Program-made: the position numbers and the translations under genes
The notes under the pieces: model-generated
Told to the model about the DNA's origin: nothing
The model's input: the letters and a program-made list of their open reading frames with translations, nothing else
Databases searched by the model: none
IMG/VR virus record: IMGVR_UViG_3300045988_020086
Length of the DNA stretch: 50,115 bases
Strand: one strand, 5' to 3'
Origin: a virus
Shown: piece after piece, positions 1-50,115 of the stretch
How the letters are laid out: each line of letters begins with the position of its first letter
How positions within the stretch are numbered: position 1 is the first letter of the stretch

Positions 1-141
1 ATTTCCGAACGTCCATCTTGTAAGCCAGTTTACCACAGATCGGGGGTGATAGTCAAGCGGATACCCCAGCGGGGCCGCACCGCTCAAAGCGGCCCCGCCC
101 CACTACCCCGGCAGCCCGCCGGGGCAAACCTGAAAAGCAAA
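1..141. repeat. Direct terminal repeat (assembly overlap of a circular or terminally redundant genome)
   Basis: nt 1-141 are identical to 49975-50115, giving a unit length of 49,974 bp. Confidence 0.95.
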
Positions 142-3675: not shown

Positions 3676-3794
3676 CACGAAATCGGACACTCTGGCAGGG
3701 CAAGCACCGTAAAGCAGCCCCGCCCCACTACCCCGGCAGCCGCCGGGAGATCATCCCGAACACCAACCATAACACGAAAAGGAGCTGTCACGAA
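3676..3794 (+). repeat. Early-operon intergenic module, copy 5
   Basis: Near-identical to copy 1 over its 3' half; CACGAAA at 3676, 3773 and 3789. Confidence 0.85.
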
Positions 3795-11903: not shown

Positions 11904-12079
11904 GTGCGCACTTCTCCTATGGATTGAACATCAAACAGTTCAAATTCTGTATAGTGTTCTGCAGCTTGCTTCTTCGCCTCGCAAGCTGCTTCCTCTGTAT
12001 TGATAGCATCCAACGTATACTGCAGGCACTCTTTTGTTCCGCGTCTGTCGGATGCTCTCAGTAAGACACAGTACCTCAT
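11900..12079 (-). CDS. Small hypothetical protein (59 aa)
   Basis: Start MRYCV has an ATGA overlap with the upstream peptide stop. Confidence 0.4.
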   Translation of the reverse strand: MRYCVLLRASDRRGTKECLQYTLDAINTEEAACEAKKQAAEHYTEFELFDVQSIGEVRT

Positions 12080-12201
12080 ACAAACAGATACCCCCAGCAG
12101 AACTTCACCAGCGCAGCAGGCACCAGCAGCAAAACCGCCGCCCAAATTGCCGCGGCCAGCAGAAGCAGAACCGTACCGAGAGTTTTAACCAGTCCATCCA
12201 T
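12076..12201 (-). CDS. Small membrane peptide (41 aa)
   Basis: MDGLVKTLGTVLLLLAAAIWAAVLLLVPAALV, one TM helix; GAGG RBS. Confidence 0.35.
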   Translation of the reverse strand: MDGLVKTLGTVLLLLAAAIWAAVLLLVPAALVKFCWGYLFV

Positions 12202-12211
12202 GCTTTTTACC

Positions 12212-12832
12212 TCAACCTTCCTGCTCGTCTTCATCGTTCCGCACCTGACAGGCAGGTGCGGATATGGGATTTTTGATCTTGGCGACGGGGCGGACACCAG
12301 CCTCACCCGAGGCGTTGTCGTAGGTGCAATCCCCGTTGCCGGTCGCGTGGGCGAAATAGGCTGCCGAGTTCGGCACCCGATTCTGGAGCCAGTACCATTC
12401 CCATCCGCCGTTCAAGCCCTGGGAAGCAATGCGATTCTTCCTCTGCTTCATCGGCTTCCATTGGCTCACGCTTTCGGGTTCATCTTCACCACACGGGTTT
12501 GAGCCGAAGATTTCCTTTTCCGTCGGCAGGCGCAGCAGGTCGCCGTTTTCAAAAGGCAACAACAGCTTCCTGATTTTCTGGGGGAAGCGGTCAAGGATTT
12601 CACCGTTCAGCTTCTTCCGCAGGTCGGAGGCATCCCAGCCGCCCGCATTGGTGTTCTGTGCGTTCATGCTGTATTCCTTTGCCAGGCAGTCCGCAAAACA
12701 GAAGATCATACCGTCGTTTTCTTCCTTGACGGCCAGCATCTCTACCTTTTCACCATCGGACAGCTTAAAGCGAATGACATCGCCTACCCGGAACAGGTCA
12801 ACCTTGATTTTCTCGGTTCTTCTTACTTTCAT
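12212..12832 (-). CDS. Second DGR target protein with a C-type-lectin-fold-like variable C-terminus (206 aa)
   Basis: C-terminus WYWLQNRVPNSAAYFAHATGNGDCTYDNASGEAGVRPVA aligns to the TR-encoded peptide. N-terminal part has W..S.LRKKLN-type motifs seen in Firmicutes DGR targets. No signal peptide. Confidence 0.85.
   Translation of the reverse strand: MKVRRTEKIKVDLFRVGDVIRFKLSDGEKVEMLAVKEENDGMIFCFADCLAKEYSMNAQNTNAGGWDASDLRKKLNGEILDRFPQKIRKLLLPFENGDLLRLPTEKEIFGSNPCGEDEPESVSQWKPMKQRKNRIASQGLNGGWEWYWLQNRVPNSAAYFAHATGNGDCTYDNASGEAGVRPVAKIKNPISAPACQVRNDEDEQEG
12239..12261 (-). promoter_or_regulatory. Hairpin downstream of VR2 (DGR target-recognition element candidate)
   Basis: CCGCACCTG-5 nt-CAGGTGCGG, 19 nt 3' of the GC-rich VR end. 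Confidence 0.6.
12281..12368 (-). repeat. DGR variable repeat 2 (VR2)
   Basis: 88 nt align to TR. All 9 mismatches fall at TR adenines on the coding strand. Confidence 0.9.
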
Positions 12833-12844
12833 GTCGATTCCTTT

Positions 12845-13400
12845 CTATTCTAATTCATTGCCCCACGCATCCCAACCAGGAGTACGCTTTCGGGCGAACA
12901 ATTCAATACGAGGAACATCTCCCAGCAATTCTACAATTCGCTTACGCGTTTCGTCCGGCTTTGCACTATGTTCTTGTATCGGTGTTTCAATCACTTGATG
13001 TACAGCATGGCTCTTGACCCGATCAGCGGCCTTGAATCCAGGCGTTACACCAAGCAAACAGATTTCCGCATTTGCCCTCGTGTAAGCCCCCATGCCCCAA
13101 AAATTTGTATCGCTCTTGCGGTTTTTCTTGATCCAAACAAAGGCGCAGGTCTTGTACTCAAAACCCCACGCCTCCATAACTCGCAGAGCATCGGCAATTT
13201 GTGGAAACGTAGCCCACATGAAGCAGGCCGTGCCCCCCCCCCGCCAGGTCATTGACCGGCAATGCGCAGATGTCATCCGTCGTCATTGTGTGATAGTGCT
13301 GAGCCGCATTGCCCCGGCTTTTAGGTCCTGTTCCACACTGACGGTAGCTCCACGGCGGATCAGCATAGATTACGGAATACTTTTTATCCGGGAAATCCAT
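12845..13400 (-). CDS. MT-A70-family N6-adenine DNA methyltransferase, frame broken at a G10 tract as assembled
   Basis: N-terminal part carries DPPW (YADPPWSY). The C-terminal part CFMWATFPQ..AWGFEY..VWIKK..SAKPDE continues in the +1 frame. G9 would fuse the two parts (..LAGGGTACFMW..). Confidence 0.85.
13233..13242 (-). repeat. Homopolymer G10 (C10 on the + strand) inside the MT-A70 gene
   Basis: Read directly from the sequence; encodes a Gly run. Confidence 0.95.
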
Positions 13401-17950: not shown

Positions 17951-18246
17951 GCCTTGCCCAGAGGTGTGGCAGGCAGATCAGCGGGACCAATAGCCTTGAA
18001 GTCTTCCGGGTTGATTTCCTGGGTAGGATGCTCCAACGCCTGATCGAGTGCTGCATCCAGCCCGATCTTCACATCCTGCAGCAGCTTTTCGGCCTCCTTC
18101 ACGTCATTGCCGCAAGCCGCAGCAACAATGTTCGCTGTCGCTGCAACGGCAAGGTTCACCAGCGTTTCATCGTCACCATGCGCCCACAGGTCAACATGGT
18201 TGTTTTCCAGTTCTACGGAAAAGCCAATTTTCTTTTCGTCGTTCAT
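17947..18246 (-). CDS. Hypothetical acidic protein (99 aa)
   Basis: Start MNDEKK after AAAGGA; the track ORF extends into a non-coding GC-rich leader. Confidence 0.55.
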   Translation of the reverse strand: MNDEKKIGFSVELENNHVDLWAHGDDETLVNLAVAATANIVAAACGNDVKEAEKLLQDVKIGLDAALDQALEHPTQEINPEDFKAIGPADLPATPLGKA

Positions 18247-18920: not shown

Positions 18921-19625
18921 CTACCTCATGTGAAATAAGCTGGTTTGGTTCGTGTAATTCGCAAAGCGTTCTTCCTGCGTCTTGAAATAGAACGGGTCGA
19001 TTTCAAAGCCGATAAAGTCAACACCCGCTTCATAGGCGGCAATTCTGCTGTTGCCACTTCCGAGGTGAGTATCAAGAACTTTCTGTCCAGGCTTTGCGAA
19101 ATTCTGAAAAATCCAGTCATACAGAACAATCGGCTTCTGCGTTGGGTGAACTCGTACTTCATTCAGGCTTTTGTTTCCCTGCATGATATGCCCTTCGGAA
19201 ATGCTCTTGCCCTGCATCATCCCGCTCCACATATAGCGGAATAGTCTGACCGTCTTGAGTAGGTCTGTTGCCGCAATCTCGCAGTCGGAAAAACTTGTTG
19301 CTTGGTTGCACTTATCCCATACGATACGCCCCGGAGCAAAGCCATAGCTGAAATAGTTGCAGCCCCATATAATATAGTGTCGGCTCACTCGCATCAGTTC
19401 GTCGAAATACTCTTTTCCCGGCACTTCCCATGCGGGAGATACTGGGTAATCCCGATGCACTCCGATCCGGCTGACCTTTGATCCATAGAAGCCGCGACGT
19501 TCTGGTCCGCTGAAATAAGGCGGGTCTACCACAGCGAGATCAAAATAGTCATTCGGAAATGCAGCCATTGCTTCCATGCAGTCCATGTTGTAGCAATGAT
19601 TCAATTCAAACGTCTGCGCCGTCAT
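18921..19625 (-). CDS. Beta-class N6-adenine/N4-cytosine DNA methyltransferase (N6_N4_Mtase-like)
   Basis: DPPY motif (VVDPPYF) precedes the C-terminal SAM motif LDTHLGSGNS. Confidence 0.8.
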   Translation of the reverse strand: MTAQTFELNHCYNMDCMEAMAAFPNDYFDLAVVDPPYFSGPERRGFYGSKVSRIGVHRDYPVSPAWEVPGKEYFDELMRVSRHYIIWGCNYFSYGFAPGRIVWDKCNQATSFSDCEIAATDLLKTVRLFRYMWSGMMQGKSISEGHIMQGNKSLNEVRVHPTQKPIVLYDWIFQNFAKPGQKVLDTHLGSGNSRIAAYEAGVDFIGFEIDPFYFKTQEERFANYTNQTSLFHMR

Positions 19626-19879
19626 TCTTTCAGCCCTCCGGGGTATTCCGCCCGATACCGTAACCGCTGCTTTGCATTGTAGAGCCGCATCTGCCCCAGT
19701 TCTGCGCTGTAGCCCGCACGTCCGTTGCTGTCAATCTCGCCGGTGTCGCCACGCTGCAGCTCTCTGTAAATAGTGGACCAGTTAAACGACATGGCACGGG
19801 CGATTCCCGTGATGCTCTGGCCGTTGTTATATCTGGCTTCCAAAACCTTGCGGTCTTCCAGCGTCATGTGCCTTGCCAC
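19622..19879 (-). CDS. Stand-alone IS30-N-terminal-like HTH protein; start uncertain
   Basis: LEDRKVLEARYNNGQSITGIARAMSFNWSTIYRELQRG parallels the HTH of IS30 transposases. GTG start after AGGGAG. The stop overlaps the MTase start. Confidence 0.5.
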   Translation of the reverse strand: MARHMTLEDRKVLEARYNNGQSITGIARAMSFNWSTIYRELQRGDTGEIDSNGRAGYSAELGQMRLYNAKQRLRYRAEYPGGLKE

Positions 19880-19910
19880 TTCTTTCTCCCTCTCTTCCTG
19901 AAAAATGCGC

Positions 19911-19952
19911 AAAAAAATAACGCAAGAGAATCCGCTTGATTTCTCTTGCGTT
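19911..19952 (-). terminator. Strong intrinsic terminator
   Basis: 12-bp stem AACGCAAGAGAA/TTCTCTTGCGTT followed by ATTTTTTT on the - strand. Confidence 0.7.
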
Positions 19953-20019: not shown

Positions 20020-21310
20020 TGATTTTTTGTGTATTTTAGCGCAACACAAACAGGCCGTCAAGTTTTGCTTCCTTGCAGCCTCTTTCATTCGTTCAGTTTT
20101 ACCAATCCTTTCTTCCCACCCCGCCTTTCCAGCTATGCGCTCGCTCTCTTATATAATGGTTACTTTACTTTTCGTTATGCGGTCAGCCCCAGTTCCCGCA
20201 GGCATTGGCGGAACATGGTCGCCGCACTCTTATACCCGTGAATCTTCCGGGGGTAGTTGTTGATCCAGTTCTCCGTAGCTGCGATTTCTTCCTGGGTCAC
20301 ATTGGCAAAGTTCGTTCCTTTGGGATGACGTCTGCGAATCATGCCATTCACATTCTCATTGCTGCCCCGCTCCCAAGAGGAATACGGGTGGCAGTAGTAC
20401 ACCTTCGTCCGCTGGCCGTCGATCAGGCAGGAACGCTCGATCTCGTCCGCCATTGCGAACTCGGTTCCGTTGTCCACAGTGATGCTCTTATATATAGTGC
20501 CGAACTTCTCTGCGCCAAGCTTCCGTTCTATGGCATCCAGTGCCCGCACGGTCGTTTCCGCACGGCGGTTCGGAACAAGGATGATCTTCTCATTCCTGGT
20601 CTTGCGCTCGGTCAGTACCAGCAATGCCGCGGTGCTTTTCTTTTTGCCGGAGTATACCGTGTCCATTTCCCAGTGTCCAAATTCTTCCCGGCTCTGGATT
20701 TCTTCCGGGCGTTTATCAATGCTTTCTCCTGCCGGCGCACGGGCAGGTTCCTTCTTCTTCACCTTTTTATATTCGTTCTTATGTACGCCATGCCTGGGCA
20801 AAGCTACCTGTGTCAGGTTCAGAAACACGCCTTTCTTGATGTAGCTGTAAATGGTAGGAACGGAGATGTGGGTCTTGAATGTCCGTCCTTCTTCCATTGC
20901 ATAGCCATACACTGCCGCCGGGGAGCAGTCTTTCTCTATAATAGTCTGTTCGATATAAGCTGCCAACTCATGGTCCTTTCCGATTTTAAGGTCCGGTCCT
21001 TTTTCTCGGAGGTTTGCTTGATACCTCTGTTCCGCTATATCTGGGCTGTACGTCGGGATTATCTCCCATGTTTTGCCGTCCAGCCTGTCATAGCTGCCCC
21101 GTTTTAGTTCCCGGTATACCGTCGAAGGATCAACACGCAACTTTTCCGCTATCTCTCGTGTCCTCATTCCTTCCTTTTTCCACTTCTCAATGCGAAGACG
21201 GTCCGTAAAGTTTAGGTGTTTGAACACTCTCACGCCCTGTTCCTCCTTTCAATTCTGGCGTTTCTTTGCATTTCAAGCGTAAAAGATACGATGTGCTGTT
21301 GTCAATATGC
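20020..21310 (-). mobile_element. IS30-family insertion sequence (ends approximate)
   Basis: Single transposase ORF in a lower-GC segment lying between two terminators. Terminal inverted repeats are only tentatively seen (near 20028-20045 and 21285-21300). Confidence 0.6.
20175..21233 (-). CDS. IS30-family transposase
   Basis: N-terminal HTH (REIAEKLRVDPSTVYRELKRG) plus DDE core (WEMDTV...VDNGTEF...NENVNGMIRR). Confidence 0.9.
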   Translation of the reverse strand: MRVFKHLNFTDRLRIEKWKKEGMRTREIAEKLRVDPSTVYRELKRGSYDRLDGKTWEIIPTYSPDIAEQRYQANLREKGPDLKIGKDHELAAYIEQTIIEKDCSPAAVYGYAMEEGRTFKTHISVPTIYSYIKKGVFLNLTQVALPRHGVHKNEYKKVKKKEPARAPAGESIDKRPEEIQSREEFGHWEMDTVYSGKKKSTAALLVLTERKTRNEKIILVPNRRAETTVRALDAIERKLGAEKFGTIYKSITVDNGTEFAMADEIERSCLIDGQRTKVYYCHPYSSWERGSNENVNGMIRRRHPKGTNFANVTQEEIAATENWINNYPRKIHGYKSAATMFRQCLRELGLTA

Positions 21311-21406: not shown

Positions 21407-21481
21407 AGATTGCCCCGCTTTTCCTACATCAATACCCCGCGTGGAACGCAGGGCTTCAGGAAAAGCAGAGCCGTGGTCTTA

Positions 21482-22887: not shown

Positions 22888-23241
22888 TTACATATCCTCC
22901 AGGTCAATATCGCTGTTCATGGCGAGGTAATCAAGCTGTGCCCGTACCCGCATTTTGAACAGTTCATCTTCGGACAGTTCCCGCAGGATGAACCACCACT
23001 TGCCATCCGGGTTATCCTCGGGCGGGGTAATCTGCACAAGCTCCGCGTTGTGCAGGGTGTCCGAGTAGGCGCACCCGGTCATATCGCCGTCACTGGCAGA
23101 AATATGCACCTCCGATAAATTGCCGTCGAAAATATCCGCCGTGATCTCAGTCTCCGACTGGAAGTTATTGCCGCCCAGCGTCAGGTTTTCAATCAGTGTG
23201 CCATCAGCCAGCGCAACCGTCCATGTCCGTGTTTCTTCCAT
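22888..23241 (-). CDS. Hypothetical tail-fiber-associated protein (117 aa)
   Basis: GGAAGGAG RBS. Sits in the position equivalent to XkdW, ahead of XkdX. Confidence 0.55.
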   Translation of the reverse strand: MEETRTWTVALADGTLIENLTLGGNNFQSETEITADIFDGNLSEVHISASDGDMTGCAYSDTLHNAELVQITPPEDNPDGKWWFILRELSEDELFKMRVRAQLDYLAMNSDIDLEDM

Positions 23242-24443
23242 GTTGGCTCCTTCCCGAACAAGTCCTTAAACAAGTTCGTCATATTGTGAATTTGCTTCCT
23301 GCTCATGTACTTGTAATTGGCGCAAATCCATGATTTGTAAGAATTTTCGATTTCCTCATAGGTCATTACTCCGGCATCCATTTTCCGCTTGTACGCTTTG
23401 AGCTTCCGTCGTTCTCTCGTGATGGCTTTTGGGTTGATCTTTCGGATAATCCGCCCATCTTCCTGCAAAGAATAAAGCACTTGCAAGTGGCGATACTGGC
23501 CGGACAATTTACAGATGTGGGTTTTCTTTTCGTTGATGATGATTCCCAACTTTTCTGCCCACTGCCTGACCCCGGCCATTACCTCTTGCAAATGCTCTTT
23601 GCTTTTGTCGATGATGTAGAAATCGTCCGAATATCTTCCATAGCCCTTCACTGCGCACACGATCTTGACGTAGTTATCAATGGGCACCGGGAGAAATATT
23701 CCTGTATTTTGTGAAACTTGGTTGCCTATATCTGCGCCCTTCCGCAGCATTTTCTCGCCCGTCAGGGCGGATGATGGAACGCCAATATTGAGCGTTGAAC
23801 GCACCTTTTCATGGTACATTTTCTCGATTTCCTCATCTGCGAAACGGGAAACATCCAATTCAAAAGTGCGGAATGCCAACCGCAGTTTGTCCATAACATC
23901 CGCCAGTTCTTCCGGGTCTTTGATTTCCCGCGCAAGATACTGGCTGAACTGGGCCAATGCGACTTCATGCACAATGTTGTCGTAGTAGCCGGAGAAGTCC
24001 GAGAATCCGATGTAACCTTCATTCGTGCCCTCCCGCTCATAGTATTTTCGCAGCTGGATTTCAAAGCGATGCCGATGAAACGCAACACCTTTTCCAACCT
24101 GTGAAGACGAATTGTCGTACTGCAAATATTTTTGAAGCAGCGGTGTGAGGTATTCGTCGCAGGTAATGTGGTTCACCGCCTTGTCTGCGGTTGCTGCACT
24201 CGTGATATACCGTGCGTGACCTCTTTCCTTGATGCCAAATTTCAAGCCCGGCTCAGGCTTATATGTGCCGTCCTCCATGGCTTTCTGAATATGCGCAGTT
24301 TCGAGCAGATGATTTATCTCGTATAACTGCGTTTTATATTTGAACATCGACGCTTTCATTGCTTTGGTTCCTGCTTCATGGATATAATTTGCATCTGTGT
24401 ATTTACTCATATTTCCCTGAAATAAACTGTACAATAGCTCCAT
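23193..24443 (-). CDS. DGR reverse transcriptase
   Basis: RT motifs include the DGR-typical IGNQVSQ (I/LGxxxSQ) and YSDD (GRYSDDFYII). Lies immediately 3' of TR. Confidence 0.95.
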   Translation of the reverse strand: MELLYSLFQGNMSKYTDANYIHEAGTKAMKASMFKYKTQLYEINHLLETAHIQKAMEDGTYKPEPGLKFGIKERGHARYITSAATADKAVNHITCDEYLTPLLQKYLQYDNSSSQVGKGVAFHRHRFEIQLRKYYEREGTNEGYIGFSDFSGYYDNIVHEVALAQFSQYLAREIKDPEELADVMDKLRLAFRTFELDVSRFADEEIEKMYHEKVRSTLNIGVPSSALTGEKMLRKGADIGNQVSQNTGIFLPVPIDNYVKIVCAVKGYGRYSDDFYIIDKSKEHLQEVMAGVRQWAEKLGIIINEKKTHICKLSGQYRHLQVLYSLQEDGRIIRKINPKAITRERRKLKAYKRKMDAGVMTYEEIENSYKSWICANYKYMSRKQIHNMTNLFKDLFGKEPTWKKHGHGRLRWLMAH

Positions 24444-24560: not shown

Positions 24561-24660
24561 AGCCCGGCGACGGGGCGGACACCAGCCTCATTCGAGGCGT
24601 TGTTGTAGTTGCAATTCCCGTTGTTGTTCGCGTTGGCGAAATAGGCTGCCGAGACAACGT
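24561..24660 (-). repeat. DGR template repeat (TR)
   Basis: 100 nt homologous to VR1 and VR2. The coding strand is rich in AAC/AAT codons (NVVSAAYFANANNNGNCNYNNASNEAGVRPVAG). Confidence 0.95.
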
Positions 24661-24683: not shown

Positions 24684-25070
24684 TTATTTTCCTTCCATCT
24701 GTTTGAAACGCTTTGCATCTGATTTCCGCAGAGCTTTAATTTTGTTCACCAGTTCCTCAATTTTCAGAGCCAGCTTTGTGAATTTGTTAAAATCTGCGGG
24801 CAATGTTTCCGCAACATATTGCAGCTCATCCATCAGCATCCAGCAGGCGGCAATGGCCTTGTCGAGTTCCAGCCGTCGCGCGTCCAATTCCAGCTGGCAG
24901 CTCGGCCAGATGGAGTTTGCCGCACGGAGGTGGAGCGGAATGTCGCGGGAAAGATCGTGCATCCGCTTCCGCTCCTGCTCGATCAGCCAAAGGTTGAAGT
25001 CTTGCTCCTGCTCCCGGATTTGTGCGACTGCCTTTTCTCGCTCCGGGCCTGCAGGGATGTACTTCGTCAT
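24684..25070 (-). CDS. Avd-like DGR accessory protein (128 aa, helical)
   Basis: Called on size, predicted helical character and its position between VR1 and TR (the mtd-avd-TR-rt order of BPP-1). Confidence 0.65.
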   Translation of the reverse strand: MTKYIPAGPEREKAVAQIREQEQDFNLWLIEQERKRMHDLSRDIPLHLRAANSIWPSCQLELDARRLELDKAIAACWMLMDELQYVAETLPADFNKFTKLALKIEELVNKIKALRKSDAKRFKQMEGK

Positions 25071-25238: not shown

Positions 25239-25263
25239 ATCCCACGGTACAAGCCCGTGGGAT
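25239..25263 (-). promoter_or_regulatory. Hairpin downstream of VR1 (DGR target-recognition element candidate)
   Basis: ATCCCACGG-7 nt-CCGTGGGAT, 21 nt 3' of the GC-rich VR end. Confidence 0.6.
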
Positions 25264-25269
25264 GTTCGA

Positions 25270-26598
25270 TCAGCCGATCAGCCCGGCGACGGGGCGGACA
25301 CCAGCCTCATACGAGGCGTAGTAGTAGTAGCAACGCCCGCCGCCGCCCGCGTCGGCGAAATAGGCTGCCGAGACAACGTCTCGCAGCCAGCACCAATAAC
25401 TACTGGTGAAGCTCAACCACGGTGCCAGCCGGAACAACGGCAGTTGGGATTTGGAGATCGTGTAGTTGTTCGGGATGTTGGTGCCGTCAGAAGCGGGTGC
25501 AAAAATGTGGCTGCCATACATCATGTTCTCATTGGGAAGTTCCACCGTGCTGTCGTACCAGGTACCGCCGGACGGTCTGCCGTTGGACACGGCGTTCGTC
25601 AGATGCTCACGGTGGTTCAGGATATGGGCAGAGCCAAATGCAGCATTGAAGGTTGTTTTTGCCTGCGTCAGGCCATTCTTGTACATATCGCTGCCGACAT
25701 AGCCGCCCTCGGTCGTGTTGCTGGCGTTCATGTGGTAGGTATACAGGTGGTTGCGAGGGATGATGACAACATGGTGCGTGGTGCAGGCTGTGTCGCCGCA
25801 CTGATACCAGTAGTCAAAGCCAGCAACGAGGTAGTCTACGCCGCCGATCTGCCAGTAATCGCCGAGGTAAATGTCCTTGAACGTACCAGCTTTGATAGCC
25901 GCGGCCTGCTCTGCGGTCAGGCTGCTGCCAAGGTTCTTGCCGCGATAGATCATGTTGTGAGTGGCAGCATTGTCCATGATGCTGACAGTCTCACCGCCGC
26001 CGGGCATAACCAGCGGGCCAGTCAGCGTACCGCCGGACAGAGGCAGGTAGGTTTCCTGTGTTTCCTTTTGCAAATCCTCTTTGGCTTTGTCGATTTTGGT
26101 ATTGACCTGTGCGATCTGCTGGTTCACCATCTTCACGGACGCAACAGCGTTCGGGTCAACGGTCACGCTGATGTTGGCAAGGTTCGAGATTGCCATAATT
26201 CCGTACAATTCGATGGAAAAATCGCTGTTCTCCGTGTGGGACGGAATCTCCACGCCGCGGTCGTCCTGCATAATAATCAGCAGGGTTTCCTCGCCGTCTG
26301 CCAGCTTCGCATAGATACCGACCTGATGCAGGATGTACCCGGTTTCCAGATCGCCATTGGTGATCTGGATTTTGATGCGCTTGCCCACGTCGTCGTCGCT
26401 GCTGTCGGTTGCATCCTCGATGCCAAGGATTTTAAGGGTCTGCTTCTGCTCTTTCACGTCGGTCAGAGCTGCCAGCGATTCCGCCGCCGTGGTGCCAGAG
26501 CCGCCCACGGCTTTGGTGATCGTCATAGTCGCGCCGGAAAGCACTTCGGACATCATTTTCGTGCCGACGTTGGTGTACAGACTGTTGTTCCAACTCAT
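25270..26598 (-). CDS. Tail fiber / receptor-binding protein with DGR-diversified C-terminus
   Basis: Follows gpI. C-terminus WCWLRDVVSAAYFADAGGGGRCYYYYASYEAGVRPVAGLIG contains VR1. Confidence 0.9.
   Translation of the reverse strand: MSWNNSLYTNVGTKMMSEVLSGATMTITKAVGGSGTTAAESLAALTDVKEQKQTLKILGIEDATDSSDDDVGKRIKIQITNGDLETGYILHQVGIYAKLADGEETLLIIMQDDRGVEIPSHTENSDFSIELYGIMAISNLANISVTVDPNAVASVKMVNQQIAQVNTKIDKAKEDLQKETQETYLPLSGGTLTGPLVMPGGGETVSIMDNAATHNMIYRGKNLGSSLTAEQAAAIKAGTFKDIYLGDYWQIGGVDYLVAGFDYWYQCGDTACTTHHVVIIPRNHLYTYHMNASNTTEGGYVGSDMYKNGLTQAKTTFNAAFGSAHILNHREHLTNAVSNGRPSGGTWYDSTVELPNENMMYGSHIFAPASDGTNIPNNYTISKSQLPLFRLAPWLSFTSSYWCWLRDVVSAAYFADAGGGGRCYYYYASYEAGVRPVAGLIG
25280..25379 (-). repeat. 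DGR variable repeat 1 (VR1)
   Basis: 100 nt align to TR. All 13 mismatches fall at TR adenines. Confidence 0.95.
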
Positions 26599-49974: not shown

Positions 49975-50115
49975 ATTTCCGAACGTCCATCTTGTAAGCC
50001 AGTTTACCACAGATCGGGGGTGATAGTCAAGCGGATACCCCAGCGGGGCCGCACCGCTCAAAGCGGCCCCGCCCCACTACCCCGGCAGCCCGCCGGGGCA
50101 AACCTGAAAAGCAAA
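49975..50115. repeat. Direct terminal repeat (second copy)
   Basis: Identical to nt 1-141. Confidence 0.95.

What the first reader, a model, noticed from the sequence alone, without database searches (positions are those of the whole stretch)
12212..12832. Second, remote DGR target in a non-structural gene 12 kb from the template
An 88-nt segment (12281-12368) at the 3' end of a 206-aa ORF matches TR. All 9 mismatches are at TR adenines: AAC becomes CAC, ACC, GGC or GAC, and AAT becomes GAT or GGT. The segment has the same GC-rich 3' end as VR1 (GGCTGGTGTCCGCCCCGTCGCC on the coding strand).

The gene lies outside the virion module, between a methyltransferase gene and small membrane-peptide genes. 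It has no signal peptide. One RT/TR therefore diversifies two unrelated loci, and the function of the second ligand-binding protein is unknown. It could be an intracellular binder, a virion accessory protein, or an exclusion or defence-related protein.
Basis: partly seen in the sequence, partly recalled or inferred. Interest (0 to 1): 0.8.

Follow-up and report, generated by a model that had tools for sequence, protein, structure and literature searches.

The report
Active second DGR target, known kind
A gut-phage mutagenic retroelement rewrites its tail-fibre tip and also a small binding protein encoded 12 kb away among early genes; this is real and active, but the same arrangement is already published for related gut phages, and the small protein's function is still unknown.

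Summary
VR2 (12281-12368, minus strand) matches TR (24566-24653) over 88 nt. All 9 mismatches fall at TR adenines (P~9e-7).

VR2 is an active target, not a relic:
- In 24 near-identical IMG/VR relatives, all 22 TR-adenine positions of VR2 are polymorphic (1.48 bits, against 0.05 at non-A sites).
- TR is invariant in 13 relatives.
- A rare TR C42T variant reappears in VR1 and VR2 of the same contig.
- A covarying hairpin lies 18 nt downstream of VR2. A similar one follows VR1; TR has none.

The 206-aa product is a stand-alone DUF6273 domain. It is homologous to the C-terminal domain of the VR1 tail fibre, so the two targets are not unrelated. It has no signal peptide and no tail-anchor domain. 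It sits in the methyltransferase/replication operon.

This is not new. Homologous or syntenic small distal DUF6273 targets are published for Roseburia phage Shimadzu (orf43, mutagenesis shown experimentally), Faecalibacterium phages Toutatis, Lelie and CP11, nd4/nd12, and four gut prophages with a distal VR near methyltransferases. I found one more in Acutalibacter phage Fontainebleau.

Function remains unknown. Verdict: a new member of a known kind, of modest interest.

The parts
12281..12368 (-). VR2, the variable repeat at codons ~155-184 of the small target gene
   Evidence: 88-nt match to TR with 9/9 mismatches at TR adenines. All 22 A positions are polymorphic in 24 relatives.
12281..12302 (-). 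A-free, GC-rich 3' end of VR2 (GGCTGGTGTCCGCCCCGTCGCC), resembling an IMH (initiation of mutagenic homing) element
   Evidence: Identical in TR, VR1 and VR2. Essentially invariant in relatives: one C-to-T in one locus.
12238..12262 (-). Hairpin TCCGCACCTG-CCTGT-CAGGTGCGGA, 18 nt downstream of VR2 and inside the ORF (it encodes SAPACQVR); putative target-recognition cruciform
   Evidence: Fold. An equivalent hairpin sits at the same position in most of the 91 family loci, as roughly 20 distinct sequences. In an 18-hairpin subset plus VR1, 10/10 pairs show compensatory changes. Absent downstream of TR.
12212..12832 (-). Small DGR target gene: 206 aa, a single DUF6273 domain plus an acidic tail
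   Evidence: Pfam PF19789 at 26.6 bits against a 23.5-bit cut-off, and phrog_21980 at E 2e-24. All 26 diverse relatives hit DUF6273. BFVD structural hits are DUF6273 proteins.
24566..24653 (-). TR, the template repeat (homology with VR1 extends over 24561-24660)
   Evidence: Invariant in 13 related contigs except one C42T variant, which is copied into both VRs.
23193..24443 (-). DGR reverse transcriptase
   Evidence: Pfam RVT_1 E 6e-11 and phrog_1423 E 2e-35. The IGNQVSQ motif is visible in the translation.
24684..25070 (-). Avd-like accessory gene, assigned by position only
   Evidence: 128-aa ORF between target 1 and TR. It has 39-44% identical counterparts in the same position in L035, L054, L076 and L086. 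No family hit. No similarity to Toutatis Avd.
25270..26598 (-). Primary target: tail fibre with VR1 (25285-25372) at its C-terminus
   Evidence: The N-terminal 170-200 aa match tail-fibre PHROGs (E 7e-47). VR1 has 13/13 mismatches at TR adenines.
25239..25263 (-). Hairpin downstream of VR1 (ATCCCACGG-GCTTGTA-CCGTGGGAT), 21 nt after VR1
   Evidence: It shares the CTTGT loop motif and the ATC 5' flank with the VR2-family hairpins.
12076..12201 (-). 41-aa hydrophobic peptide ORF starting 10 nt after the target's stop codon (context only)
   Evidence: hydropathy 2.7. The sequence is conserved in relatives with 70-95% identical targets.
12845..13400 (-). MT-A70 DNA methyltransferase gene immediately upstream, split by a frameshift in this assembly (context only)
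   Evidence: Pfam MT-A70 E 1.4e-16 and PADLOC MTase_II E 1e-46. The DPPW-bearing N-terminal part is in another frame.

Best explanation
VR2 is a genuine, currently active second target of the phage's single diversity-generating retroelement.

Mechanism, inferred by analogy with phage BPP-1 and with experimentally tested Shimadzu:
- The TR RNA (24653 to 24566) is reverse-transcribed by the adjacent RT, with misincorporation opposite adenines.
- The cDNA replaces the homologous 88 nt in either of two recipient genes.
- Each recipient is marked by the same A-free, GC-rich 3' segment and by a downstream hairpin with a CTTGT-type loop. TR lacks the hairpin.

One recipient is the tail-fibre tip (VR1). 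The other is a 206-aa free-standing copy of the same kind of DUF6273 binding domain. It has no fibre shaft, no anchor domain and no signal peptide.

This second gene lies in the operon that carries the DNA methyltransferases, a 3D-domain hydrolase, the replication initiator and a resolvase. A strong terminator separates this region from the late structural-lysis operon.

Eleven codons of the protein are randomised: nine AAY, plus TAT and TAC. A GCA and a GAG codon also carry adenines but seldom vary. This variation is independent of VR1.

My best guess at function: it is a soluble, diversified ligand-binding module made from the early/accessory operon, not a built-in tail part. What it binds is unknown.
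For: Shown here:
- The TR/VR2 match has A-only mismatches and a stop-free AAY codon design.
- Among 24 relatives whose target protein is >=90% identical, entropy is 1.48 bits at the 22 A sites, 0.046 at the other VR sites and 0.115 in the rest of the gene. There are 24 distinct VR2 alleles in 25 genomes. L019 and L020 are identical outside VR2 but differ at 8 sites inside it.
- TR is invariant in 13 contigs. The C42T TR variant in L097 is present in the VR1 of that locus and in the VR2 carried by L015, which is the same contig. This shows information flow from TR to VR2.
- A hairpin follows both VRs but not TR. It is conserved, with compensatory changes, across homologues 39-95% identical; Shimadzu (31%) has a comparable hairpin with a 6-nt loop.
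- More distant homologues (53-62% identity: L035, L054, L076, L086) have a TR 6-9 kb upstream with A-dominated mismatches (7/8, 13/13, 8/11, 17/17).
- Fontainebleau's homologue has 15/15 mismatches at TR adenines.
- The protein is DUF6273 and is homologous to the tail-fibre C-terminal domain.
- Gene map. Terminator at 21406-21367 and promoter-like sites near 20 kb.
- The small target sits in a syntenic early/replication-module position in Toutatis (upstream of the replication initiator and antiterminator Q), in Shimadzu (between the methyltransferases and Erf/SSB) and in the siphovirus Fontainebleau (between DNA polymerase I and a helicase).

From the literature: Shimadzu orf43 was mutagenised experimentally (10.1101/575076).
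Against: - No read-level data for this genome, so activity is inferred from variation between genomes.
- The Avd assignment rests on position only.
- The structure model is only moderate (pLDDT 67.8; the VR region is below 50). It gave no significant match to solved C-type-lectin folds.
- The covariation test used hairpins that had been selected for being hairpins, which inflates the percentage of paired positions.
- 'Early operon' is inferred from synteny and consensus scans, not from expression data.
- Bacterial DUF6273 domains can be extracellular; the one example I read is the N-terminal domain of a secreted IgA protease (PMC12402451). This sits awkwardly with a protein that has no signal peptide.
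Confidence: 0.88

Rival explanations
1. The small protein is a virion component. It would be an accessory adhesin or second receptor-binding protein that docks non-covalently on the fibre, baseplate or capsid. In that case the DGR simply diversifies two host- or mucus-binding surfaces of the particle. This is the reading favoured in the tentaclin and iLund4u papers.
For: It shares the DUF6273 binding domain with the tail-fibre tip. DUF6273 targets in other phages are tail or Hoc-like proteins. Published authors suggest an Mtd-like receptor-binding role.
Against: - It has no N-terminal shaft or anchor domain and no tail-category PHROG hit.
- It is encoded 12 kb from the structural genes, beyond a strong terminator and the lysis genes.
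- It holds the same early/replication-module position in myoviruses (this window, Toutatis, Shimadzu) and in a siphovirus (Fontainebleau), so it does not track one tail architecture.
- VR1 and VR2 alleles in the same genome are unrelated (window, L015/L097, L019/L105).
Confidence: 0.3
2. The protein acts inside the infected or lysogenic cell as a diversified binder in phage-host or phage-phage conflict. It could inhibit variable defence proteins or exclude competing phages. It would then belong with the neighbouring anti-restriction methyltransferases.
For: - No signal peptide or transmembrane segment.
- It lies next to MT-A70 and near C5 and other methyltransferases.
- The methyltransferase/replication-module context is also seen in Shimadzu, Toutatis and Fontainebleau.
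- The Nature 2025 survey noted distal second VRs next to counter-defence genes (PMC12629997).
Against: - No PADLOC hit for the protein or its unannotated neighbours.
- MT-A70 adjacency is not conserved even among close relatives: about half have the 3D-domain gene directly upstream instead.
- DUF6273/C-lec domains are otherwise known as extracellular binders.
- There is no precedent for an intracellular phage DGR target.
Confidence: 0.22
3. The protein is a lysogenic-conversion or released lectin. It would be expressed from the prophage, or released at lysis, and would bind carbohydrates on bacterial or host cells, as proposed for the Mushu Hoc-like DUF6273 protein.
For: A 2026 preprint reports a prophage DGR-diversified DUF6273 protein expressed in lysogens and present in the secretome and vesicles (10.64898/2026.05.08.723808). 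A weak promoter-like site lies directly upstream of the gene (12875-12847).
Against: There is no secretion signal. The promoter-like match is no better than chance expectation. The Mushu protein is a large multi-Ig tentaclin, not this small type.
Confidence: 0.15
4. VR2 is a dead relic of an ancient homing event, or a chance or assembly-derived repeat.
For: None beyond the single-genome pattern, which on its own cannot tell an old event from a recent one.
Against: There are 24 distinct VR2 alleles in 25 near-identical genes, differing almost only at TR-adenine sites. A TR polymorphism is copied into VR2. The match has E 2e-29 and the A-only pattern has P 9e-7.
Confidence: 0.01

Closest known systems
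Roseburia phage Shimadzu orf43 (VR2 target), Cornuault et al., bioRxiv 10.1101/575076
   Same: It is a homologue (31% identity over 93% of the query, tblastn E 5e-19). It is a small protein carrying a second VR far from the RT cassette. The context is the same: cell-wall hydrolase, C5 methyltransferase, methyltransferase, target, then recombination and replication genes. A hairpin follows the gene. Both VRs were shown to be mutagenised in virion reads and in evolved isolates.
   Different: The sequence is divergent. The C-terminus lacks the GVRP motif (it has YVPV). The hairpin loop is 6 nt. The target is followed by Erf/SSB, which are absent here.
Faecalibacterium phages FP_Toutatis / Lelie / CP11 'small DGR target' (PMC11792537; bioRxiv 10.1101/2024.10.15.618418)
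   Same: These are the closest cultured relatives of the window phage (TerL 59.5% identity), and the genome is syntenic. Toutatis gp24 is a small DUF6273 protein with a VR 17,480 nt from TR. It is a core gene and sits in the same slot between the 3D-domain/methyltransferase genes and the replication initiator.
   Different: gp24 is not detectably similar to the window protein outside the VR (BLASTP E 0.8; hhalign 47%). The large target there is a Hoc-like tentaclin downstream of RT; here it is a tail fibre upstream of avd. I found no CTTGT-type hairpin when reading the ~130 nt after the GVRP codon in Toutatis.
Gut-virome phages nd4/nd12, target2 (tentaclin paper, PMC10743442)
   Same: One TR serves two DUF6273 targets. 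Target2 is a small single-domain protein with the VR at its C-terminus, modelled as a C-lec-like fold with a VR beta-hairpin.
   Different: I did not retrieve the genomic position of target2 in those phages, and those sequences were not compared here.
Four human-gut prophage species with a distal second VR near DNA methyltransferases (Nature 2025, PMC12629997)
   Same: [quoted passage not shown]
   Different: Those are mostly Bacteroidota prophages. Target-protein families are not given in the text I read.
Bordetella phage BPP-1 DGR (mtd-avd-TR-brt), the archetype
   Same: The cassette order is the same (target, avd, TR, RT). Both show adenine-specific mutagenesis, AAY codons, a GC-rich 3' element and a downstream hairpin at the VR. 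The hairpin/IMH requirement is from my own knowledge of Guo et al. 2011 and was not checked here.
   Different: BPP-1 has a single adjacent target, Mtd, a trimeric tail-fibre tip protein with N-terminal attachment domains. Here a second target is remote and lacks such domains.
Acutalibacter phage Fontainebleau (ON453893), hypothetical protein WAK78934
   Same: It is a 39% identical homologue with a VR showing 15/15 mismatches at adenines of a TR next to the RT. It has a hairpin after the gene and is encoded in the replication module.
   Different: It is a siphovirus. The target lies between DNA polymerase I and a helicase, about 25 kb from TR in the linear record. I did not find this DGR described in the papers searched.

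Membership tests
Diversity-generating retroelement (DGR) variable repeat / target | A TR/VR repeat pair whose differences fall at TR adenines | tested here: met
   9/9 mismatches for VR2 and 13/13 for VR1 are at TR adenines (P 8.7e-7 and 4e-10).
Diversity-generating retroelement (DGR) variable repeat / target | A DGR-type reverse transcriptase encoded next to TR | tested here: met
   RVT_1 E 6e-11 and phrog_1423 E 2e-35. An IGNQVSQ ([I/L]GxxxSQ-type) motif is visible in the translation; that this motif is DGR-specific is from my own knowledge. RT starts 122 nt downstream of TR.
Diversity-generating retroelement (DGR) variable repeat / target | An Avd accessory protein | tested here: inconclusive
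   A 128-aa ORF is in the canonical position and is conserved there in distant relatives. It has no Pfam, PHROG or NCBIfam hit and no similarity to Toutatis Avd.
Diversity-generating retroelement (DGR) variable repeat / target | VR in frame at the 3' end of an ORF, with an AAY-rich TR that cannot generate stop codons | tested here: met
   nine AAC/AAT codons, the same frame for both VRs, and no stop reachable.
Diversity-generating retroelement (DGR) variable repeat / target | Cis elements for homing: an invariant GC-rich 3' end and a downstream hairpin at VR but not at TR | tested here: met
   A 22-nt A-free identical 3' end. Hairpins lie 18 and 21 nt after VR2 and VR1, with none after TR. The hairpin covaries across the family (with a selection caveat). 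Its function in homing is not testable here.
Diversity-generating retroelement (DGR) variable repeat / target | Ongoing diversification: VR hypervariable at A sites in populations, TR conserved | tested here: met
   (comparison between genomes). Variation within the sample could not be tested because no reads were available.
DUF6273 (Pfam PF19789) | A match to the Pfam model above its gathering score | tested here: met
   26.6 bits against a 23.5-bit cut-off. 26 of 26 diverse relatives match, best E 9e-13. All database homologues carry a precomputed PF19789 assignment.
DUF6273 (Pfam PF19789) | Structural similarity to other DUF6273 proteins | tested here: met
   Foldseek against BFVD: E 5e-7 to 6e-4, TM 0.5-0.6; four of the six hits are unnamed or otherwise named, and two are annotated as DUF6273. 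The model is only moderate (pLDDT 67.8).
C-type-lectin-fold DGR variable proteins (Mtd / TvpA type) | Fold similarity to solved C-lec/FGE-type structures | tested here: inconclusive
Phage tail fibre / virion structural protein | Encoded in the structural module, or carrying a fibre or anchor domain | tested here: not met
   The gene is 12 kb from the tail genes, beyond lysis genes and a terminator. There is no tail-category PHROG hit. Only the C-terminal binding domain is shared with the fibre.
Phage tail fibre / virion structural protein | Physically present in virions | not testable with these tools
   This needs virion proteomics. No such data were found for any homologue in the papers read.
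Known anti-phage defence / counter-defence families (PADLOC) | A match to a defence-system protein model | tested here: not met
   No hit for the target. Only the neighbouring MT-A70 matches MTase_II.

The most novel reading that the evidence does not exclude
The small distal DUF6273 targets form a conserved class of early-expressed, non-virion, antibody-like phage proteins. On this reading they are cytoplasmic (or released at lysis) binders that the DGR keeps re-randomising. They would neutralise variable host defence proteins or exclude competing phages, rather than recognise receptors on the particle. The supporting facts are the conserved slot in the methyltransferase/replication operon across myo- and siphoviruses of Faecalibacterium, Roseburia and Acutalibacter, and the absence of any anchor or secretion signal.
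Probability: 0.2. Interest if true: 0.8.

Novelty: new member of a known kind. Interest (0 to 1): 0.3.

Why it matters
On its own this window adds one more well-documented example to a published class, so it would not surprise a specialist.

It does bear on an open question. Gut-phage DGRs are assumed to serve host-range switching through tail proteins. Yet a recurrent second target is a tiny stand-alone binding domain encoded among early, DNA-modification and replication genes, and its function is unknown.

This analysis adds three points to the published descriptions:
1. The slot in the early/replication module is conserved across at least four phage lineages and two tail morphotypes.
2. The target carries a conserved, covarying hairpin with a CTTGT-type loop. 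This is a candidate homing signal shared by both VRs of one element.
3. A natural TR polymorphism can be traced into both VRs.

These points give concrete handles for experiments on target recognition and on the protein's role.

Tried and rejected
- First AlphaFold run, using 42 homologues of at least 64% identity: pLDDT 46.5, unusable. A second run with 82 more diverse sequences improved only to 67.8, and the VR stayed unresolved.
- Foldseek against the PDB and HMM searches of PDB sequences with two family profiles gave no credible hit. The C-lec fold is therefore not confirmed here.
- NCBIfam gave nothing for the target, the fibre or Avd.
- PADLOC gave nothing for the target or its unannotated neighbours.
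- The Avd candidate could not be confirmed against Toutatis Avd.
- Host assignment through the species-representative genome collection failed. Only 47-58% identical homologues were found, in assorted Clostridia (one contig labelled Bacteroidaceae). The Faecalibacterium-like assignment rests on TerL similarity to Toutatis and Lelie and on about 55% GC.
- Nucleotide search of GenBank phages with the locus found a single 67% hit, to the methyltransferase only.
- I considered that the window might be the published prophage CP11. I rejected this because CP11 is about 36 kb and this genome is about 50 kb.
- I considered a 'matched decoy of the tail-fibre tip'. This is disfavoured because VR1 and VR2 alleles in the same genome are unrelated (n=3).
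- I considered the hairpin as a plain terminator. I rejected this because it has no T-run, lies inside the ORF here, and has a counterpart after VR1.
Full report
**1. The observation**

The window is a complete phage genome assembled as a circle: bases 1-141 equal 49975-50115. Searching 12231-12420 against the whole window finds exactly two other copies of the 88-nt core:
- 24566-24653, with 9 mismatches and E 2e-29.
- 25285-25372, with 13 mismatches.

All three copies are read on the minus strand. Every one of the 9 VR2 differences and 13 VR1 differences lies at an adenine of the 24566-24653 copy, which is therefore the template repeat (TR). TR has 22 A in 88 nt, so the chance of this pattern is 8.7e-7 for VR2 and 4e-10 for VR1.

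Both variable repeats use the same frame of TR. TR carries nine AAC/AAT codons, and no stop codon can arise by adenine mutagenesis. The last 22 nt (GGCTGGTGTCCGCCCCGTCGCC) contain no A and are identical in all three copies.

The ORF 12212-12832 (minus) encodes 206 aa behind a good ribosome-binding site.

**2. The element**

On the minus strand the order is:
- tail fibre with VR1 (26598-25270; its N-terminal 170-200 aa match tail-fibre PHROGs, E 7e-47);
- a 128-aa ORF in the Avd position (25070-24684);
- TR;
- a reverse transcriptase (24443-23193; RVT_1 E 6e-11, phrog_1423 E 2e-35, with an IGNQVSQ motif).

This is the BPP-1-type cassette. The Avd assignment is positional only. It has no family hit and does not resemble Toutatis Avd, but the ORF is conserved at that position in distant relatives.

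**3. Is VR2 alive?**

A protein-guided scan of IMG/VR returned 79 loci encoding relatives, 24 of them at least 90% identical. The evidence for ongoing diversification is as follows.

- In those 24 loci plus the window, all 22 TR-adenine positions of VR2 are polymorphic, and 20 of them have three or four alleles.
- Mean entropy is 1.48 bits at the A sites, 0.046 at the 66 non-A sites of VR2, and 0.115 in the remaining 533 nt.
- There are 24 distinct VR2 alleles among 25 genes.
- L019 and L020 are identical outside VR2 but differ at 8 positions inside it.
- An exact-pattern scan for the TR 3' junction recovered 13 related contigs. TR is identical in 11 of them and carries a single C42T change in the other two.
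- One of those two (L097) is the same contig as L015. Its VR1 and its VR2 both carry T at position 42, as do six other VR2 alleles. A non-adenine template polymorphism has therefore been copied into VR2, which shows information flow from TR to VR2.

**4. Cis elements**

Folding the coding strand downstream of each repeat shows the following:
- VR2: a 10-bp hairpin (TCCGCACCTG-CCTGT-CAGGTGCGGA, 12262-12238) 18 nt after the repeat.
- VR1: a 9-bp hairpin (ATCCCACGG-GCTTGTA-CCGTGGGAT) 21 nt after the repeat.
- TR: nothing comparable.

Most of the 91 family loci have a hairpin 17-28 nt after the conserved GVRP codon. Among these are roughly 20 distinct stem sequences with 5-nt loops, mostly CTTGT, TTTAT or CCTGT, usually preceded by AATC. 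In an alignment of 18 distinct VR2-family hairpins plus the window's VR1 hairpin, all 10 pairs show compensatory changes. 88% of cells pair, against 39-53% when the partner column is shifted. These sequences were chosen because they fold, so the paired fraction is inflated. The informative facts are the recurrence at a fixed position and the different stems.

In most relatives the hairpin lies just after the stop codon. In the window's lineage the ORF reads through it, and it encodes SAPACQVR. The position, the contrast between VR and TR, and the shared loop fit the hairpin/cruciform that marks DGR targets in BPP-1. That requirement is from my own knowledge of Guo et al. 2011 and was not verified here.

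**5. The protein**

Family assignment:
- It passes the Pfam gathering score for DUF6273 (26.6 against 23.5 bits) and matches phrog_21980, a family of unknown function.
- All 26 diverse relatives match DUF6273. In a relative (L054) the VR-bearing C-terminal stretch aligns to profile positions 107-171 of 172.
- The public protein collection holds about 3,900 family members at E<=1e-5. Single 90%-identity clusters contain thousands of distinct sequences (6,521, 7,495 and 13,623), as expected for hypervariable genes.

Sequence features:
- The protein has no hydrophobic segment.
- It has no defence-family hit.

Relationship to the tail fibre:
- A profile of the family aligns to residues 287-440 of the VR1 tail fibre at 96.8% probability (E 2.8e-10, 132 columns) (BLASTP).
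- Outside the TR-derived part, the shared signature is YxMNxxNTxxGG(Y/W)xxSD.
- The second target is therefore a free-standing version of the fibre's binding domain. The two proteins are not unrelated.

Structure:
- AlphaFold with a shallow alignment failed (pLDDT 46.5).
- With 82 diverse sequences it reached pLDDT 67.8 and pTM 0.68. The core is confident but the VR is unresolved.
- Foldseek found no solved structure. It did match predicted viral proteins, two of them annotated as DUF6273 (E 5e-7 to 6e-4).

**6. Context**

PHROG scans give a myovirus map on the minus strand:
- Terminase small and large subunits (46.9-43.8 kb), portal, major head protein, sheath, tape measure, baseplate.
- Fibre/VR1, the DGR cassette, endolysin and holin (22.6-21.7 kb).
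- A strong terminator (21406-21367) and a transposase-like gene.
- From about 19.9 kb: an HTH protein, a methyltransferase, an HD phosphohydrolase, a C5 methyltransferase (16387-14795), a 3D-domain hydrolase, MT-A70, and the VR2 gene.
- Small ORFs, a regulator, a replication initiator (9235-8363), a resolvase and a late-activator-like regulator.

Promoter-like sites lie at 20061-19966.

The closest cultured phages by TerL are Faecalibacterium phages Toutatis and Lelie (59.5%). GC content is about 55%. Related phages compare as follows.

| Phage | Position of the small DUF6273 target |
|---|---|
| Toutatis (myovirus) | gp24 lies between the methyltransferase/3D-domain genes and the replication initiator, upstream of antiterminator Q |
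| Shimadzu (myovirus) | orf43 follows cell-wall hydrolase, C5 methyltransferase and methyltransferase, and precedes Erf, SSB and the replication initiator |
| Fontainebleau (siphovirus) | the homologue lies between DNA polymerase I and a helicase |

In Fontainebleau the homologue's VR differs from the TR next to the RT at 15 positions, all at adenines. Several more distant IMG/VR relatives have the RT cassette 6-10 kb upstream on the same strand.

Adjacency to MT-A70 itself is not conserved even among close relatives. What is conserved is the position in the early/accessory/replication module, across two tail morphotypes.

**7. Mechanism and function**

Shown here:
- Template-to-VR2 information flow.
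- Adenine-specific diversification.
- The presence of shared cis elements.

Inferred by homology:
- The RT/Avd-mediated 'copy and replace' mechanism. The inference draws on BPP-1 and on Shimadzu, where both VRs were seen to mutate experimentally.

Function is unresolved. The published guess is a receptor-binding protein. The Nature 2025 survey suggests an arms-race role because distal VRs lie near methyltransferases.

My evidence leans against a built-in tail component:
- There is no anchor domain.
- The gene is in an early-module slot.
- It is independent of tail type.
- VR1 and VR2 alleles are uncorrelated.

This evidence cannot exclude a loosely attached virion adhesin. My rough split is 0.3 for a virion accessory, 0.2 for an intracellular conflict protein, and 0.15 for a released or lysogeny-expressed lectin. 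The remainder is unknown.

**8. Novelty**

Remote second DGR targets in small DUF6273 proteins are already described for:
- Shimadzu (2019 preprint);
- nd4/nd12 (2023);
- Lelie and CP11 (2024);
- Toutatisvirus (2024 preprint; 17,480 nt from TR, a core gene);
- four gut prophage species with a distal VR near methyltransferases (2025).

The window is not CP11, which is about 36 kb. The window protein belongs to a different DUF6273 subfamily from Toutatis gp24.

It is a new member of a known kind. The interest is modest and lies mainly in the unanswered question of function.

Noticed in passing
window 57-109, 510-560, 1671-1723, 1964-2016, 2638-2687, 3683-3734 (+ strand; 50031-50083 is the terminal duplicate): There are six copies of the Rfam RAGATH-5 RNA motif (63-72 bits, gathering score 50). 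Each is followed by a second GC-rich hairpin and a ribosome-binding site, and they sit between the plus-strand genes of the primase block. The repeat finder had flagged them as a 61-82-nt repeat family. Such a dense array of a ribozyme-associated motif in one phage operon deserves its own look.
   Followed up: partly
window 21409-21474 (- strand): An Rfam DUF3800-VIII sRNA motif (67.6 bits, gathering score 40.2) lies immediately upstream of the strong terminator at 21406-21367, between the holin gene and the transposase-like gene.
   Followed up: no
window 12845-13400 (- strand): The MT-A70 methyltransferase gene is split by a frameshift. The DPPW-containing N-terminal 80 aa (13400-13158) are in one frame and the C-terminal 143 aa (13276-12845) in another. 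This could be a sequencing error, a pseudogene or a phase-variable switch. About half of the close relatives lack this gene and the one before it altogether.
   Followed up: partly
window 12076-12201 (- strand): A 41-aa, very hydrophobic ORF (MDGLVKTLGTVLLLLAAAIWAAVLLLVPAALVKFCWGYLFV) starts 10 nt after the VR2 gene's stop codon. It is conserved in relatives with 70-95% identical targets. It could be a membrane partner of the soluble target; this was not tested.
   Followed up: no
window 20175-21233 and 19622-19912 (- strand): A transposase-like gene (phrog_4646, E 1e-124) follows the late-operon terminator. Its N-terminal HTH is homologous to the small HTH protein that heads the next operon. 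Its presence and position vary among close relatives. No integrase was identified in the window.
   Followed up: no
L097/L099 (TR) and L001, L003, L010, L011, L015, L016, L017 (VR2), position 42 of the repeat: A natural C-to-T polymorphism in TR is mirrored in VR1 and VR2 of the same lineage. It can be used as a built-in tracer of homing.
   Followed up: yes
L042-L050, L059, L064, L075, L077-L079, L085, L088: Some homologues 47-57% identical, many of them on 40-170-kb contigs, lack the downstream hairpin. They also have no A-specific TR match within 10 kb. They may be non-diversified paralogues or may have lost the DGR, as reported for some Toutatisviruses.
   Followed up: partly
P0121, P0122: Proteins of about 380 aa appear to be tandem double versions of the small DUF6273 target (bit scores 465 and 375 against the family profile).
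   Followed up: no
L092 49048-49200 (FP_Toutatis gp80): The RefSeq record annotates a 50-aa 'DUF6273 domain-containing protein' between Avd and RT. This is almost certainly the template repeat translated, that is, an annotation artefact.
   Followed up: no
L091 7974-8543 and L106 17392-17499 / 18106-18193 (Acutalibacter phage Fontainebleau, ON453893): This cultured siphovirus has a two-target DGR. VR1 is at the end of a hypothetical protein upstream of TR and RT. A remote VR (15/15 mismatches at adenines) is in a small DUF6273 gene between DNA polymerase I and a helicase. The record annotates both target genes as hypothetical.
   Followed up: partly
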